UHGV virus genome: UHGV-0101604
From: a virus
Strand: one strand, 5' to 3'
DNA length: 34,403 nt
The stretch's first letter is position 1. Each line of letters starts with the position of its first letter. The position numbers were made by a program, and so were the translations under genes. Positions 2,952-6,587 of the stretch are shown here, in pieces. Below the pieces are notes generated by a model. It ran no database searches. It saw only the letters and a program-made list of their open reading frames with translations, and had not been told where the DNA came from.

Positions 2952-3026
2952 GGGTCAGTCGTATAAAGGTCATTACGGAAGGCTGTTAACCTTCTTATCG
3001 TGGTTCGAGTCCACGCTGTCCCGCCA
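2952..3026 (+). tRNA. tRNA-like gene, anticodon GTT (Asn) by manual folding
   Basis: 75 nt; perfect anticodon stem GAAGG/CCTTC with loop CTGTTAA; perfect T-arm CGTGG-TTCGAGT-CCACG; 3' CCA; acceptor stem has one T-T mismatch and the D-arm is weak. Confidence 0.45.
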
Positions 3027-3031
3027 AATAT

Positions 3032-3106
3032 GCTGGTTTAGCTCCAATGGTAGAGCGGTCGCCTTGTAAGCGAATGGGTAGCGGTTCAAGTCCGTTAACC
3101 AGCACC
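3032..3106 (+). tRNA. tRNA, anticodon TGT (Thr) by manual folding
   Basis: 75 nt; perfect 7-bp acceptor stem GCTGGTT/AACCAGC; canonical D-arm GCTC-CAATGGTA-GAGC; anticodon loop CTTGTAA; T-arm AGCGG-TTCAAGT-CCGTT; encoded CCA. Confidence 0.65.
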
Positions 3107-4469: not shown

Positions 4470-4589
4470 AAGACTATTTTGCTGCCATGAAGAAGCTTTA
4501 TATCTTTGGTCAATACATCGAACAGATCAGATAATTCTTATGTGATTGATGCTATATTTATCCCCTATTTAAACATGGGAGTTACGGAT

Positions 4590-5390
4590 ATGTCTGTCAG
4601 TCAAGATATTTATAAGTCTACACTTAGAGTTGAAAGTGATACTCCAGAGGGAACCTCGGTAGGAACTGCTTTCTGGTTTTGCTTTGTTATGGAAGGTGGT
4701 GAAGATATTGTTCCACTCTTGGTAACTAATAAGCATGTTGTTAACGGGGCAACAGAAGTTAGGCTACGTCTAAACATTACCGACAGCGCAAATCCTGAGA
4801 TAAAATTTTATAACCTAACAATTTCAGAGGGGGCAAATGCGTTCATTATGCACCCTGATGATAATGTTGATATATGCATATTGCCTATCGCTGGATTGCT
4901 GAATGAGATGGAGAAAAGTGGCATTAGCCCAGAACTCTTCTTTTTCACAGATCGTCAGATGCGTGGTAACAATTACATTACTCCTGTCGAAGATGTTTAC
5001 ATGACAGGATATCCAAATGGATTATGGGATTCTGTAAACAATAGGCCTGTTACCAGGAAAGGCATCACAGCATCATCACCTATGGAAAACTGGAAGGGTA
5101 AGCCTGAATTCCTCATTGATATGGCTTGTTTCGGTGGTTCTAGCGGTTCTCCCGTTTATATAATGAACCAAGGCTCATATGCTACTAATGATGGTATTGC
5201 TATGGGGGAGAGATTAATTTTCCTTGGGTTGTTGTATGCAGGGCCAGTAACGAATGTTAGCGGGAATATTGAAATTATTGACGTACCAACAGTCGCTACA
5301 CCAGTTGTGCGTTCTGAAATTACAATGAATCTCGGATTTGTTATTAAAGCAGAGAAGCTAAATGACTTTAAGCCTCTCTTGGGGATTTAA
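4590..5390 (+). CDS. Stand-alone trypsin/chymotrypsin-fold serine protease (moron gene)
   Basis: His-Asp-Ser triad in canonical order and spacing: TNKHVV (codon 4734-4736), DICIL (Asp about 4869), GGSSGSPV (Ser about 5142). No signal peptide seen. ATG at 4590 after GGGAG (track ORF extends to 4506). Markedly AT-rich relative to flanking phage genes. Confidence 0.75.
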   Translation: MSVSQDIYKSTLRVESDTPEGTSVGTAFWFCFVMEGGEDIVPLLVTNKHVVNGATEVRLRLNITDSANPEIKFYNLTISEGANAFIMHPDDNVDICILPIAGLLNEMEKSGISPELFFFTDRQMRGNNYITPVEDVYMTGYPNGLWDSVNNRPVTRKGITASSPMENWKGKPEFLIDMACFGGSSGSPVYIMNQGSYATNDGIAMGERLIFLGLLYAGPVTNVSGNIEIIDVPTVATPVVRSEITMNLGFVIKAEKLNDFKPLLGI

Positions 5391-5394
5391 CACA

Positions 5395-5420
5395 AGCCGC
5401 CTCCGGACGGTTTTTTTATT
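5395..5420 (+). terminator. Probable intrinsic terminator after the protease gene
   Basis: Short GC hairpin (CCG...CGG around TCCGGA) followed by TTTTTTTATT immediately after the protease stop; the stem is weak, the T-tract strong. Confidence 0.4.
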
Positions 5421-5435
5421 GCTATTACAAAAGCC

Positions 5436-5467
5436 ACTCCATGCCGAGTGGCTTTGATAATGGCTTA
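5436..5467. terminator. Strong hairpin, likely bidirectional terminator
   Basis: Perfect 10-bp stem AAAGCCACTC/GAGTGGCTTT with loop CATGCC; A-tract on one side and T-tract on the other, so it can terminate on either strand. It lies downstream of the minus-strand ORF 5739-6011. Confidence 0.5.
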
Positions 5468-5523
5468 TACCCTACACGGGATAACTTAACTGATATCCCA
5501 ACAAGCGGATAAAGAGGTTCTCA

Positions 5524-5649
5524 ATGTCCGACATCTACCAAATCATGTTAACCACCCAAACAGGCGAAACCTTTACGGGTAAGATGTCACGACGTCAGCG
5601 TGAGCTGGTTAATGGCTTTATGCAGCCGGCTACCGAGATGGGCGAGTAG
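5524..5649 (+). CDS. Small ORF (41 aa) with strong RBS; hypothetical
   Basis: ATG at 5524 preceded by AAAGAGG at good spacing; product MSDIYQIMLTTQTGETFTGKMSRRQRELVNGFMQPATEMGE. Below the ORF-track size cutoff; no homology recognised. Confidence 0.3.
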   Translation: MSDIYQIMLTTQTGETFTGKMSRRQRELVNGFMQPATEMGE

Positions 5650-5738
5650 AATAACTCCATTAGGAGAATGTGGAACCATTACACTTTGAGCCGTTAACTG
5701 ATATTGATAAAGGTAAATAATATCGTGGTTAAGGCTTT

Positions 5739-6011
5739 CTAATAGCCAGCCATTTGCAAAATCACAGTTGCAGCAGCAGCGAAAGCTGCATATGAGTTAT
5801 ATTTAGACTGTAACCGCGCAGTTAAGAAAAATTCGTGAAGATCTACATTTTTTTGGGGATCATCAAATGTAATTGCTACAACGGTGCTTCTACCTGTTTT
5901 GACTTTGGCTGTTGCTGATTTGATCCATAACCCAGCCGATAAAAAACCAAAGAAAATTGATAGTGTATGATGGTCAATTAACCAGTTTTTAATTAGTAAT
6001 AAATCACTCAT
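5739..6011 (-). CDS. Hypothetical small membrane protein (minus strand) within the AT-rich moron region
   Basis: Minus-strand ORF; likely start at the Met of MSDLLLIKNWL (6011). Hydrophobic segments LSIFFGFLSAGLWI and AAFAAAATVILQMAGY. AT-rich; convergent with the protease gene. Weak RBS, so coding status is uncertain. Confidence 0.35.
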   Translation of the reverse strand: MSDLLLIKNWLIDHHTLSIFFGFLSAGLWIKSATAKVKTGRSTVVAITFDDPQKNVDLHEFFLTARLQSKYNSYAAFAAAATVILQMAGY

Positions 6012-6035
6012 TTTCAATCCAATTGAGACTTTGCC

Positions 6036-6587
6036 ATGGCACTCACCGACAAACAAGAAATGTTCTGTCGCGAGTACCTCATCGATTTAAACGCCACACA
6101 AGCGGCTATTCGGGCGGGGTACAGCGCAAAGACAGCCAACCGTACTGCGTCCGAAAACATGTCAAAACCTGACATCAAGTTAAGAATCGCTGAACTGAAA
6201 GCGCAACGCAATGATCTTGTTGGTATTAATGCAGAATATGTACTTAATCGCCTTCTTGAAATCGACCAGATGGATGTGCTTGACATTCTCCTGCAAAACG
6301 GTGAGCTAAAACCCATTAAAGACTGGCCTAAGGTATGGCGCACAACGCTATCAGGAATGGATGTCGTGGAGATGGTATCCGCAGATAGCGCCGCACTTCT
6401 GAAGAAAATCAAATGGCCTGATAAGGTTAAAAACCTTGAGTTGCTTGGGCGTCATGTTTCTGTTCAGGCGTTTAAAGACAACGTCAAAAATGAAGTGACT
6501 GGCGCTGATGGAGGACCAGTCAGAACAGAAATTACCAACTTAACGCCGGAGCAGGCTGCAGAGGCGTATAGAAAAATGATGGGCTAA
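6036..6587 (+). CDS. Terminase small subunit
   Basis: 183-aa protein [34 protein letters not shown]... (HTH-type small terminase N-terminus), directly upstream of the large terminase. Confidence 0.8.

What the first reader, a model, noticed from the sequence alone, without database searches (positions are those of the whole stretch)
5436..6035. Convergent small genes and paired terminators filling the rest of the lysis-terminase gap
Seen in sequence: after the protease gene there are two hairpins (5395-5420 weak, 5436-5467 strong and bidirectional), then a 41-aa ORF with an excellent RBS (5524-5649, AAAGAGG-N6-ATG), then a minus-strand 90-aa hydrophobic ORF (5739-6011) that starts only 25 bp from the small-terminase start and converges on the protease. 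The minus-strand piece is AT-rich. If real, the minus-strand membrane protein and the small plus-strand peptide may be accessory genes functionally linked to the protease, or independent morons. The cos/pac region is also expected near here, so some of these structures could be packaging signals instead.
Basis: inference. Interest (0 to 1): 0.45.

Follow-up and report, generated by a model that had tools for sequence, protein, structure and literature searches.

The report
Mosaic junction before a prophage terminase gene
The gap between the lysis genes and the terminase gene of this lambda-like prophage is a recombination junction holding a terminator, a widely shared RNA hairpin element, a truncated gene remnant and one real small two-helix protein gene of unknown function; it is mostly ordinary phage mosaicism, not a packaging site.

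Summary

- **5394-5417:** an ordinary intrinsic terminator ending the AT-rich protease moron, which matches PADLOC candidate PDC-S45.
- **5430-5455 (the "strong bidirectional" hairpin):** part of a 96-nt element (5421-5516) found in about 2300 of 5426 complete E. coli genomes and in HK97, HK022, Sf6, epsilon34 and Stx phages. It always lies between the post-lysis cargo and the first packaging-module gene. Its stem shows compensatory and G·U-only changes that fit the plus strand, so it is a late-transcript RNA hairpin, not a bidirectional terminator or a cos/pac signal.
- **41-aa ORF:** the N-terminal 41 residues of a 60-72-aa family that normally sits just upstream of terS. The model predicts five β-strands and this form lacks the last two, so it is probably a remnant.
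- **90-aa minus-strand ORF:** a real gene under purifying selection (dN/dS 0.03-0.25). It has two long helices and no known family. It lies 19-26 bp from Terminase_2 terS starts even at about 51-53% identity, and occupies a slot that holds unrelated small ORFs in other prophages.

It is not linked to the protease. Its function, possibly a prophage-expressed exclusion or defence protein, is inferred only.

The parts
4581..5390 (+). Trypsin-like serine protease gene, an upstream cargo gene (moron). It gives context only and is not part of the finding's interval.
   Evidence: Pfam Trypsin_2 at E 1.9e-10. PADLOC PDC-S45 at E 3.4e-100. phrog_7688. GC is 40%. A promoter-like site lies at 4507-4535.
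5394..5417 (+). Intrinsic terminator of the protease moron: a stem at 5394-5413 followed by seven T.
   Evidence: The terminator scan calls it on the plus strand. The fold is -7.3 kcal/mol. Other cargo genes at this position end in their own stem plus T-run directly abutting the conserved element.
5421..5516 (+). Conserved junction element, 96 nt: hairpin 1, a near-invariant stretch of about 60 nt containing hairpin 2, and the approach to the next gene's ribosome-binding site.
   Evidence: It is found in 2314 of 5426 E. coli genomes and in 106 phage records including HK97, HK022, Sf6, epsilon34 and Stx phages. A covariance model finds exactly one copy in the window, at 5421-5516 with 109 bits. 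There is no Rfam family.
5430..5455 (+). Hairpin 1 core (10 bp, 6-nt loop), extendable to 5421-5464. It is an RNA hairpin of the late (plus-strand) transcript.
   Evidence: Among 28 sequence variants of three stem types, the plus-strand fold is the more stable in 26, and the mismatching substitutions are G·U on the plus strand. 98% of cells are paired against 39-56% in slid controls, and 4 of 17 pairs (hand alignment) or 8 of 17 pairs (model alignment) change on both sides.
5478..5499 (+). Hairpin 2 (GGGATA, 10-nt loop, TATCCC) inside the invariant stretch.
   Evidence: It is predicted in the fold. Its pairs almost never vary, so covariation says nothing for or against it.
5511..5517 (+). Shine-Dalgarno sequence AAAGAGG, 6 nt before the ATG of the 41-aa ORF.
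   Evidence: Read directly from the sequence. The same GGATAAAGAGG-N-ATG leader precedes the full-length 72-aa gene in Enterobacter prophages.
5524..5649 (+). orf41: the truncated N-terminal part of a 60-72-aa gene family (phrog_6581) that normally lies immediately upstream of terS.
   Evidence: phrog_6581 positions 1-41 of 66. 89 homologue clusters, mostly 62-72 aa. The full-length gene ends 4 nt before a 200-aa gene (no Pfam hit) that sits in the terS position, directly before a 490-aa gene and the portal gene. The AlphaFold model of the 72-aa form has 5 strands, and residues 1-41 cover only 3. Common E. coli alleles carry an in-frame 12-nt deletion.
5650..6035 (.). Replaceable cargo cassette holding orf90 (36% GC). 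Its left edge is right after the orf41 stop and its right edge is at the terS ATG.
   Evidence: Homology to L007/L008 covers exactly 5524-5649 and then 6035 onward, with 1.3 kb of other minus-strand genes in between. Unrelated 72-, 78- and 81-aa ORFs occupy the slot elsewhere.
5694..5713 (+). Probable relic of the 3' part of the conserved element (TTAACTGATAT followed by TGATAAAGG).
   Evidence: An 11-nt exact direct repeat of 5486-5496 is followed by a 9/10 match to TTGATAATGG (5454-5463). It also resembles the element's GGATAAAGAGG leader (5507-5517), by my reading of the sequence.
5739..6011 (-). orf90: a real gene for a small two-helix protein, probably in the membrane, of unknown function (phrog_14357).
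   Evidence: phrog_14357 over its full length at E 2.9e-62. 14 cluster representatives across 1.84 billion proteins. Conserved motifs SA..W..S and Q.K.N..AA..AA....Q. dN/dS of 0.03-0.25. The AlphaFold model has pLDDT 80 with helices at 2-34 and 58-88. There are no Pfam, NCBIfam, PADLOC, PDB or BFVD matches.
6012..6035 (.). 24-bp divergent intergenic spacer between the orf90 and terS start codons.
   Evidence: Read from the sequence. The same 19-26-bp spacing is kept in relatives with about 51-53% orf90 identity and 56-62% terS identity.
6036..6587 (+). Terminase small subunit gene (Terminase_2). Its first 125 nt or so travel with orf90 even outside phages.
   Evidence: Pfam Terminase_2 at E 2.8e-39. 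Stand-alone orf90 copies in an Enterobacter chromosome and a Pseudomonas plasmid keep a decayed terS 5' end upstream.

Best explanation
The interval is a mosaic junction at the head of the packaging module of a lambdoid prophage. It contains four things of different nature.

1. **5394-5417** is the intrinsic terminator of the upstream protease moron.

2. **5421-5516** is a widely shared junction element. Its first hairpin is kept as an RNA structure on the late (plus) strand.
   - Inferred: it acts on the late or moron transcripts just before the packaging genes. It could be a weak terminator or insulator that Q-modified polymerase reads through, a 3'-end stabiliser, or a processing site.
   - Inferred: because it is shared, it also serves as a homology patch for module exchange.

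3. **orf41** is what is left of the first gene of a packaging operon after such an exchange. It still has its ribosome-binding site and may be translated, but it lacks the last two β-strands of the family and is most likely non-functional.

4. **orf90** is a genuine accessory gene for a small two-helix protein, probably in the inner membrane. It sits in a replaceable minus-strand slot abutting terS.
   - Inferred: it is expressed from the prophage from signals inside the terS 5' end.
   - Inferred: it is damped by convergent late transcription on induction, as in the phi80 taiEcA/atiEcA non-contiguous operon.
   - Inferred: it acts at the membrane as a superinfection-exclusion or defence-type protein.

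The gene and RNA anatomy and their distribution are shown by the data. Expression and function are inferred. The confidence given (0.6) is for the anatomy and evolutionary reading as a whole. Taken alone, the specific function proposed for orf90 deserves about 0.3.
For: **Terminator.**

**Junction element.**
- Prevalence and position.
- The plus-strand fold is the more stable in 26 of 28 hairpin variants.
- Covariation is well above the slid controls.
- The element directly precedes a different first gene in different phages: the DUF2560 gene in Sf6, a DUF2560 remnant followed by gp74 in HK97, and orf41 here. In Stx2 phage 1717 an HNH endonuclease gene follows about 640 bp downstream.

**orf41.**
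- Family alignment and contexts.
- Exact homology breakpoints.
- Structure model.
- Deletion alleles.
- dN/dS rises to 1.2-1.5 between some truncated alleles, against 0.0 between full-length ones.
- HK97 and HK022 show the same pattern, with a truncated DUF2560 gene after the element.

**orf90.**
- Family and selection.
- Model.
- Linkage to terS but not to the protease.
- Stand-alone copies next to an integrase or on a plasmid.
- Rarity and alternative occupants of the slot.
- Low GC.

**Analogous arrangement.** In phi80 the opposite-strand gene is expressed in the lysogen, and its level fell when Q was over-expressed (PMC11364771).
Against: - No convincing sigma-70 promoter was found upstream of orf90. 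The best candidates score 8-9 of 12, and one 9/12 site in L016 is at chance level.
- orf90 has a weak Shine-Dalgarno sequence in the window (my reading of the sequence).
- Hydrophobicity is below the usual transmembrane threshold (1.34).
- No sequence or fold similarity links orf90 to any exclusion or defence protein.
- The persistent pairing of orf90 with terS down to about 51-53% identity could mean a packaging-related role rather than a cargo role.
- orf41 keeps an open frame, an in-frame deletion and a strong ribosome-binding site, so a functional short form is not excluded.
- Much of the element's covariation reflects three lineages rather than many independent events, and the larger alignment was fitted to the model.
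Confidence: 0.6

Rival explanations
1. One reading: the 41-aa peptide and the 90-aa membrane protein are accessory genes that work together with the upstream protease.
For: The three genes are adjacent in the window and in four identical or near-identical IMG/VR contigs (L020, L022-L024). The protease matches a phage-defence candidate.
Against: - Of the 17 IMG/VR loci with a window-type orf90 copy (at least 83% identity), 13 have no protease. These have Rha or other cargo, or no readable upstream sequence, and 12 of them have a recognisable orf41.
- In PADLOC, PDC-S45 is, as I read the 'S' in the name, a single-gene candidate (one search gives no description).
- The protease has its own terminator.
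- The conserved junction element separates the protease from the two ORFs.
- orf41 relatives occur without orf90, and orf90 relatives occur without orf41.
Confidence: 0.04
2. The hairpins and the AT-rich stretch are cis-acting packaging signals (cos or pac) for the adjacent terminase.
For: The position is immediately upstream of terS. No experimental end-mapping is available for this phage.
Against: - The element occurs in HK97 and HK022, in the P22-like phages Sf6 and epsilon34, and in Stx phages with an HNH-type packaging module. That these include both cos and headful packagers is from my own knowledge.
- In HK97 the element lies about 800 bp from the genome end.
- The 5650-6035 cassette is present in only 11 of 5426 E. 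coli genomes, while near-identical terS genes sit next to unrelated cassettes.
- The cassette is protein-coding and under purifying selection.
Confidence: 0.04
3. orf90 is not free cargo but a partner of this terS type. For example, its 5' untranslated transcript, which is antisense to the terS start, could keep terminase silent in the lysogen, or the protein could act in packaging or its timing.
For: - The divergent 19-26-bp arrangement with Terminase_2 terS is kept at about 51-53% orf90 identity and 56-62% terS identity.
- Stand-alone copies still carry about 125 nt of terS 5' sequence.
Against: - The same terS works with unrelated ORFs in the slot.
- orf90 survives intact where terS has decayed.
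- The minus strand and low GC are typical of morons.
Confidence: 0.15
4. orf41 is a functional 37-41-aa peptide in its own right, not a remnant.
For: - It has a strong ribosome-binding site.
- The frame stays open in all alleles seen, and the deletion allele is in frame.
- The N-terminal 41 residues are the best conserved part of the family.
- A 41-aa allele is very common.
- PGAP annotates it in strain HZ13.
Against: - It lacks strands 4 and 5 of the predicted five-strand fold.
- The window allele carries four replacements in residues 33-39 relative to the family consensus.
- dN/dS is above 1 for some truncated pairs.
- The L007 allele is a simple amber mutant of the full gene.
- PGAP does not call it in strain R1.
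Confidence: 0.2
5. The conserved 96-nt element has no function of its own. It is only a passively shared patch spread by recent recombination among enterobacterial lambdoid phages.
For: - Copies are 80-100% identical and restricted to Escherichia, Shigella, Salmonella and one Klebsiella phage.
- More distant Enterobacter prophages with the 72-aa gene lack it.
- Truncated first genes after the element point to frequent exchange here.
- Sf6 is annotated with 'boundary sequences' elsewhere.
Against: - The hairpin arms differ between three types while pairing is kept.
- Substitutions are G·U-compatible on one strand only.
- The 60-nt core is far more uniform than either flank.
Confidence: 0.3

Closest known systems
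Morons of lambdoid phages (concept from the HK97/HK022 comparison; examples: lambda bor and lom, HK97 gp15). Own knowledge, plus the definition quoted in PMC2629481.
   Same: - orf90 is present in some phages and absent in otherwise near-identical ones.
- It is on the strand opposite to the late operon.
- It has lower GC than its surroundings.
- It lies in the lysis-to-packaging gap where lambda carries bor.
- The protease upstream fits the same pattern, with a promoter-like site and a terminator.
   Different: - No promoter could be identified for orf90.
- It has no terminator of its own immediately downstream.
- It keeps a fixed position against terS over deep divergence, which is unusual for free cargo.
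phi80 taiEcA/atiEcA non-contiguous operon between the lysis and packaging genes (He et al. 2024, PMC11364771).
   Same: - An opposite-strand gene is embedded in the Q-dependent late operon just before the packaging module.
- A small late-strand gene lies next to it.
- In phi80 the opposite-strand gene is made in the lysogen, and its level fell when Q was over-expressed.
   Different: - There is no sequence similarity between orf90 and phi80 orf65, or between the orf41 family and AtiEcA. orf90 was not compared with TaiEcA directly, and no match to phi80 appeared when orf90 was searched against all phage records.
- TaiEcA is a 204-aa protein, while orf90 is a 90-aa two-helix protein.
- orf41 and orf90 do not co-occur strictly.
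- No expression data exist here.
Small inner-membrane superinfection-exclusion proteins of phages (HK97 gp15, T4 Imm, P22 SieA). Own knowledge.
   Same: - The size class is similar.
- A two-helix hairpin is predicted.
- The position and orientation are prophage-moron-like.
   Different: - No detectable homology or fold match.
- Hydrophobicity of the window copy is marginal.
- Function is untested.
'Boundary sequences' (bsq), or linker sequences, of lambdoid phages, as annotated in the Sf6 record. The modular-exchange idea is own knowledge.
   Same: - It is a short conserved non-coding patch at a module border.
- Both flanks are mosaic.
- Truncated genes lie next to it.
   Different: - This patch is not one of the features annotated in the stretch of the Sf6 record I examined.
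- It carries a hairpin with strand-specific compensatory changes, which a pure recombination linker does not need.
Intrinsic (Rho-independent) terminators.
   Different: On the plus strand the element's hairpin is followed by UUUGAUAAU at best. In the common type C variant there is no U tract on either strand.

Membership tests
Moron (independently expressed cargo gene in a phage operon) | Present at a given position in some phages and absent from otherwise closely related ones | tested here: met
   The orf90 cassette is in 11 of 5426 E. coli genomes. The same terS has unrelated 72-, 78- and 81-aa ORFs in the slot.
Moron (independently expressed cargo gene in a phage operon) | Own promoter and terminator flanking the gene | tested here: inconclusive
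   No sigma-70 match of 9/12 or better lies upstream of orf90 on the scan of the window. My looser scan found only a perfect -35 hexamer with a poor -10 (9/12 overall) and one 8/12 site. One 9/12 site in L016 is at chance level. The nearest minus-strand terminator-like structure is the element's hairpin about 275 nt downstream.
Moron (independently expressed cargo gene in a phage operon) | Base composition different from the neighbouring phage genes | tested here: met
   orf90 is 36% GC and the 5650-5738 spacer 34%, against 46% for terS, 54% for terL and 48% for the window.
Moron (independently expressed cargo gene in a phage operon) | Expressed from the repressed prophage | not testable with these tools
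   This needs RNA-seq or a reporter in a lysogen.
Non-contiguous operon (opposite-strand gene inside an operon, with mutual transcriptional interference) | Gene on the opposite strand flanked on both sides by genes of one transcription unit | tested here: met
   orf90 (minus strand) lies between orf41 and terS (plus strand), downstream of Q, holin, endolysin and Rz. That this is one late transcription unit is assumed from lambdoid biology.
Non-contiguous operon (opposite-strand gene inside an operon, with mutual transcriptional interference) | Overlapping antisense transcripts that co-ordinate expression | not testable with these tools
   No transcript data are available. Shown only for phi80 in PMC11364771.
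Intrinsic terminator, applied to the 5430-5455 hairpin | Stable GC-rich stem directly followed by a U tract on the transcribed strand, conserved among copies | tested here: not met
   The terminator scan does not call it. The plus-strand tail is UUUGAUAAU. Type C copies have CUCGACAAU on the plus strand and CUCUGCAAU on the minus strand.
Intrinsic terminator, applied to 5394-5417 | Stem followed by a U tract | tested here: met
   Called by the scan, with seven T after the stem.
Structured cis-acting RNA, applied to hairpin 1 of the junction element | Base pairing kept through compensatory and strand-specific (G·U) changes | tested here: met
   98% of cells are paired, against 39-56% for slid controls. 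4 to 8 of 17 pairs change on both sides. The plus strand is the more stable in 26 of 28 variants. Caveat: three lineages supply most of the variation.
Any Rfam family | Match at or near the gathering score | tested here: not met
   Only two tRNAs pass in the window. The best hit in 5300-6100 scores 19.7 bits against a gathering score of 90.
cos/pac packaging signal | Sequence specific to, and co-distributed with, one terminase type | tested here: not met
   The element occurs with at least three different packaging modules. The cassette is absent from most prophages with this terS.
Membrane protein with two transmembrane helices (orf90) | Two hydrophobic helices long enough to span the membrane | tested here: inconclusive
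   The AlphaFold model has helices at 2-34 and 58-88. The Kyte-Doolittle maxima are 1.34 and 0.96, below 1.6. More distant family members look clearly hydrophobic by eye.
Known anti-phage defence or exclusion families (PADLOC, Pfam, NCBIfam) | Significant profile match for orf90 or orf41 | tested here: not met
   There are no families at E <= 1 in PADLOC. There are no hits above threshold in Pfam or NCBIfam.
PHROG families phrog_14357 (orf90) and phrog_6581 (orf41) | Significant profile match | tested here: met
   E 2.9e-62 over 90/90 positions, and E 2.5e-16 over positions 1-41 of 66. Both families are of unknown function.
Holin or lysis protein (considered for orf90) | Encoded in the late transcription unit with the lysis cassette | tested here: not met
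   orf90 is on the opposite strand, about 1.3 kb after the end of the Rz/Rz1 region. The lysis cassette is complete without it.

The most novel reading that the evidence does not exclude
The 96-nt junction element (5421-5516) could be an undescribed cis-acting RNA that gates entry of transcription or translation into the packaging genes. It occurs in a large share of enterobacterial lambdoid phages, including HK97, HK022, Sf6 and Stx phages. One possible mechanism is an insulator that stops cargo-gene transcripts from reaching terminase in lysogens but is read through by Q-modified polymerase. Separately, orf90 could found a new family of small membrane proteins that prophages place antisense to the terS start, both to exclude other phages and to silence terminase.
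Probability: 0.25. Interest if true: 0.6.

Novelty: new member of a known kind. Interest (0 to 1): 0.36.

Why it matters
If the reading is right, three things follow.

- **A cargo hotspot.** The gap between lysis and packaging genes in these prophages is a structured exchange point. It has a fixed RNA element, a frequently truncated first gene, and a replaceable minus-strand slot against terS. That makes it a predictable place to look for new prophage-encoded exclusion or defence genes. The protease here already matches a defence candidate.
- **An unstudied RNA element.** The element is in nearly half of complete E. coli genomes and in model phages with good genetics, so its role can be tested directly.
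- **Annotation.** The 41-aa ORF should be treated as a probable remnant and the 90-aa ORF as a real gene.

Tried and rejected
- **Rfam.** Searches at gathering and permissive thresholds found no family for the hairpins or the element.
- **Profile searches of both ORFs.** Pfam, NCBIfam and PADLOC gave nothing.
- **Structure-based searches.** A PDB profile search, BFVD fold search for orf90 and PDB fold search for the 72-aa protein gave only non-specific matches. The afdb50 library was not available.
- **tblastn of orf90 against 50,697 phage records.** No real hit.
- **Coding potential of the conserved element.** One frame reads through to the GGATAA stop in some variants. I rejected this because the three hairpin types differ in length by 3-4 nt and the substitutions are not synonymous-biased.
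- **Promoters.** I found no convincing promoter for orf90 or inside the element.
- **Homology to phi80.** orf90 does not match phi80 orf65, and the orf41 family does not match AtiEcA.
- **Other occupants of the slot.** The 72-, 78- and 81-aa ORFs elsewhere are not distant orf90 relatives.
- **Literature.** Searches for the element's sequence, DUF2560, boundary sequences and PDC-S45 found no description of the element or the two ORFs.
Full report
**Setting.** The window is a lambdoid prophage late region. In order it carries:
- NinG-like and Q genes
- two tRNA genes
- holin, endolysin and Rz/Rz1
- a trypsin-like protease gene (4581-5390)
- the 645-bp gap under study
- terS (Terminase_2, 6036-6587), terL and the portal gene

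The protease matches the PADLOC phage-defence candidate PDC-S45 (E 3.4e-100). It is AT-rich (40% GC) and has a promoter-like site upstream.

**The observation.** All described features are present.
- Hairpin 1 is a stem at 5394-5413 followed by seven T. It is the only structure in the gap that the terminator scan calls on the plus strand.
- Hairpin 2 has a 10-bp core at 5430-5455, extendable to 5421-5464.
- The plus-strand fold of 5385-5525 is far better than shuffles (z = -4.8) and better than the minus-strand fold (z = -2.4).
- The 41-aa ORF (5524-5649) has AAAGAGG 6 nt before its ATG.
- The 90-aa minus-strand ORF (5739-6011) starts 24 bp from the terS ATG and is 36% GC.

**The strong hairpin belongs to a widespread junction element.**
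- A stretch of about 77-100 nt around it is 80-95% identical in 93-106 phage records and in 2314 of 5426 complete E. coli genomes. It is unannotated, or overlapped only by 'hypothetical protein' calls, in the records listed.
- It is present in Sf6 between gp66 and gp67 (DUF2560) and in HK97 109 nt upstream of gene 74. It is also in HK022, epsilon34 and several Stx phages. In Stx2 phage 1717 an HNH endonuclease gene starts about 640 bp downstream of it and terS follows.
- In every case it lies after the variable post-lysis cargo (Rha, KilA-N, protease and others) and before the packaging module. In most copies it directly precedes that module's first gene.
- Its 3' end runs into that gene's ribosome-binding site.
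- From 120 IMG/VR stretches I collected 28 variants of the hairpin, falling into three stem types (AAAGCCAYTC, AAGCCYATC, GAGRCCATTC).
- In 26 of 28 variants the plus-strand RNA fold is the more stable, because the substitutions give G·U pairs on that strand and A·C mismatches on the other.
- On a hand-checked alignment, 98.4% of helix cells pair and 4 of 17 pairs change on both sides. Across the whole structure, slid controls pair in only 41-56% of cells.
- On 104 covariance-model matches the figures are 97.9% paired and 8 of 17 pairs. That alignment was fitted to the model, and three lineages carry most of the variation.
- The common type C has no U tract on either strand, so the hairpin is not a conserved terminator, still less a bidirectional one.
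- In the window's allele the minus strand does read stem plus UUUUGU. It could therefore incidentally stop orf90 transcripts.
- The second hairpin (5478-5499) and the rest of the 60-nt core are nearly invariant, which is unexplained.
- There is no Rfam family, no sigma-70 match and no consistent reading frame.

The element accompanies at least three different packaging modules, which from my own knowledge include both cos and headful phages. In HK97 it lies about 800 bp from the genome end. It is therefore not a packaging signal.

**The 41-aa ORF.**
- It matches positions 1-41 of the 66-position profile phrog_6581.
- It has 89 homologue clusters, most of 62-72 aa.
- In Enterobacter prophages the full 72-aa gene ends 4 nt before a 200-aa gene in the terS position, which is followed by a 490-aa gene and the portal gene. 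Related phages of Enterobacter, Erwinia and Cronobacter keep it ahead of the packaging genes.
- The AlphaFold model of the 72-aa form (pLDDT 69.5) has five β-strands. The window's ORF stops after the third.
- In a common E. coli allele (L007/L008) the stop is a plain TGG to TAG change, with the remaining frame intact.
- In the window the sequence diverges completely right after the TAG.
- Other E. coli alleles carry an in-frame 12-nt deletion and a TAA stop.
- dN/dS over the 41 codons is 0.0 between full-length alleles and reaches 1.2-1.5 between some truncated ones, though the counts are small.
- HK97 and HK022 show the same pattern with a different gene: a 5' fragment of the DUF2560 gene follows the element and then gives way to gene 74.

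I read orf41 as a remnant left by module exchange. It may still be translated. A functional short form is not excluded.

**The 90-aa ORF.**
- It matches phrog_14357 over its full length (E 2.9e-62).
- An exhaustive search of 1.84 billion cluster representatives finds 14 relatives of 48-92 aa, most of 83-92 aa.
- These share SA..W..S in helix 1 and Q.K.N..AA..AA....Q in helix 2.
- Informative pairs give dN/dS of 0.03-0.25.
- The model (pLDDT 80) is a hairpin of two long helices.
- Hydrophobicity of the window copy is moderate (1.34). More distant members look clearly hydrophobic by eye.
- No Pfam, NCBIfam, PADLOC, PDB or BFVD relationship was found.

**Context of orf90.**
- In the prophage contigs where terS is detectable, orf90 is divergent from a Terminase_2 terS, with 19-26 bp between the start codons. 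This holds even at about 51-53% orf90 identity and 56-62% terS identity. One such relative also keeps a full-length orf41 homologue convergent on it.
- orf90 also occurs alone next to a small integrase gene in an Enterobacter chromosome and on a Pseudomonas plasmid. In those places it still carries about 125 nt of decayed terS 5' end.
- The cassette 5650-6035 is in only 11 of 5426 complete E. coli genomes.
- Homology to prophages with the same terS stops exactly at the orf41 stop and resumes at the terS ATG. The slot holds unrelated ORFs of 72, 78 or 81 aa, the last with a 301-aa gene.
- Only 4 of the 17 IMG/VR loci with a window-type orf90 copy (at least 83% identity) also have the protease, so the two are not a system.

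**Mechanism.**
- Shown: the gene and RNA anatomy, selection, distribution and breakpoints.
- Inferred: orf90 is a prophage-expressed accessory gene transcribed from signals within the terS 5' end. It meets the late transcript head-on, as with taiEcA/atiEcA in phi80. There the opposite-strand gene is made in the lysogen, and its level fell when Q was over-expressed (PMC11364771).
- By analogy with small membrane exclusion proteins (own knowledge), orf90 may block incoming phages.
- Weak points: no recognisable promoter, a weak ribosome-binding site, no homology to any characterised protein, and an unusually faithful association with terS. That association keeps a packaging-related or antisense role open.

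**Verdict.** The finding is real. It is mostly ordinary lambdoid mosaicism: one moron terminator, one gene remnant and one cargo gene of unknown function. The less ordinary item is the very widespread, strand-specific RNA hairpin element at the head of the packaging module. I found no description of it in the databases and papers searched.

Noticed in passing
window 4507-5417: The protease gene (4581-5390) matches the PADLOC single-gene phage-defence candidate PDC-S45 (E 3.4e-100) and phrog_7688. It is 40% GC and is framed by a promoter-like site (4507-4535) and an intrinsic terminator (5394-5417), so it looks like a self-contained moron.
   Followed up: partly
L168:1893-2111, L169:1844-2062, L170:1647-1883, L007/L008:3305-4452 (all minus strand): In E. 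coli prophages with near-identical terS, the slot 22-24 bp upstream of the terS ATG holds unrelated small minus-strand ORFs of 72, 78 or 81 aa. The 81-aa ORF comes with a 301-aa Vpar_1526-family gene. This looks like a polymorphic cargo slot.
   Followed up: partly
L007:3001-3207: A very common E. coli allele of the orf41 family (listed in 593 blocks of the assembly collection) is a TGG to TAG amber mutant at codon 42. The remaining 26 codons and the normal stop are intact.
   Followed up: partly
L164 (HK97) 1588-1700 and L165 (HK022) 1588-1700: Right after the conserved element, HK97 and HK022 keep the first 26 or so codons of the Sf6 gp67 (DUF2560) gene and then switch to other sequence; in HK97 gene 74 follows (the HK022 record is unannotated here). 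This is the same 'truncated first gene' pattern as orf41.
   Followed up: partly
window 5694-5713: TTAACTGATAT followed by TGATAAAGG repeats pieces of the conserved element (5486-5496 and TTGATAATGG at 5454-5463). It is probably a relic of a second, partly deleted copy of the element at the left end of the orf90 cassette.
   Followed up: no
L016:4203-5270 and L017:5001-5270: orf90 homologues (57% identity) occur outside prophages. One is next to a 234-aa phage-integrase-family gene in an Enterobacter hormaechei chromosome. One is on a Pseudomonas silvicola plasmid, near two minus-strand ORFs of unknown function.
   Followed up: partly
L040:2169-2630: A 153-aa ORF with two hydrophobic stretches lies on the same strand directly after the orf90 homologue. 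It has no Pfam hit and may be further membrane cargo in the same slot.
   Followed up: no
window 2952-3023 and 3032-3104: Two tRNA genes lie between the Q antiterminator gene and the holin gene.
   Followed up: no
window 5456-5515: About 60 nt (GATAATGGCTTATACCCTACACGGGATAACTTAACTGATATCCC...GGATAAA) are almost invariant across thousands of otherwise mosaic phage and prophage copies. They give no promoter, Rfam or coding signal, so the reason for the constraint is unexplained.
   Followed up: partly
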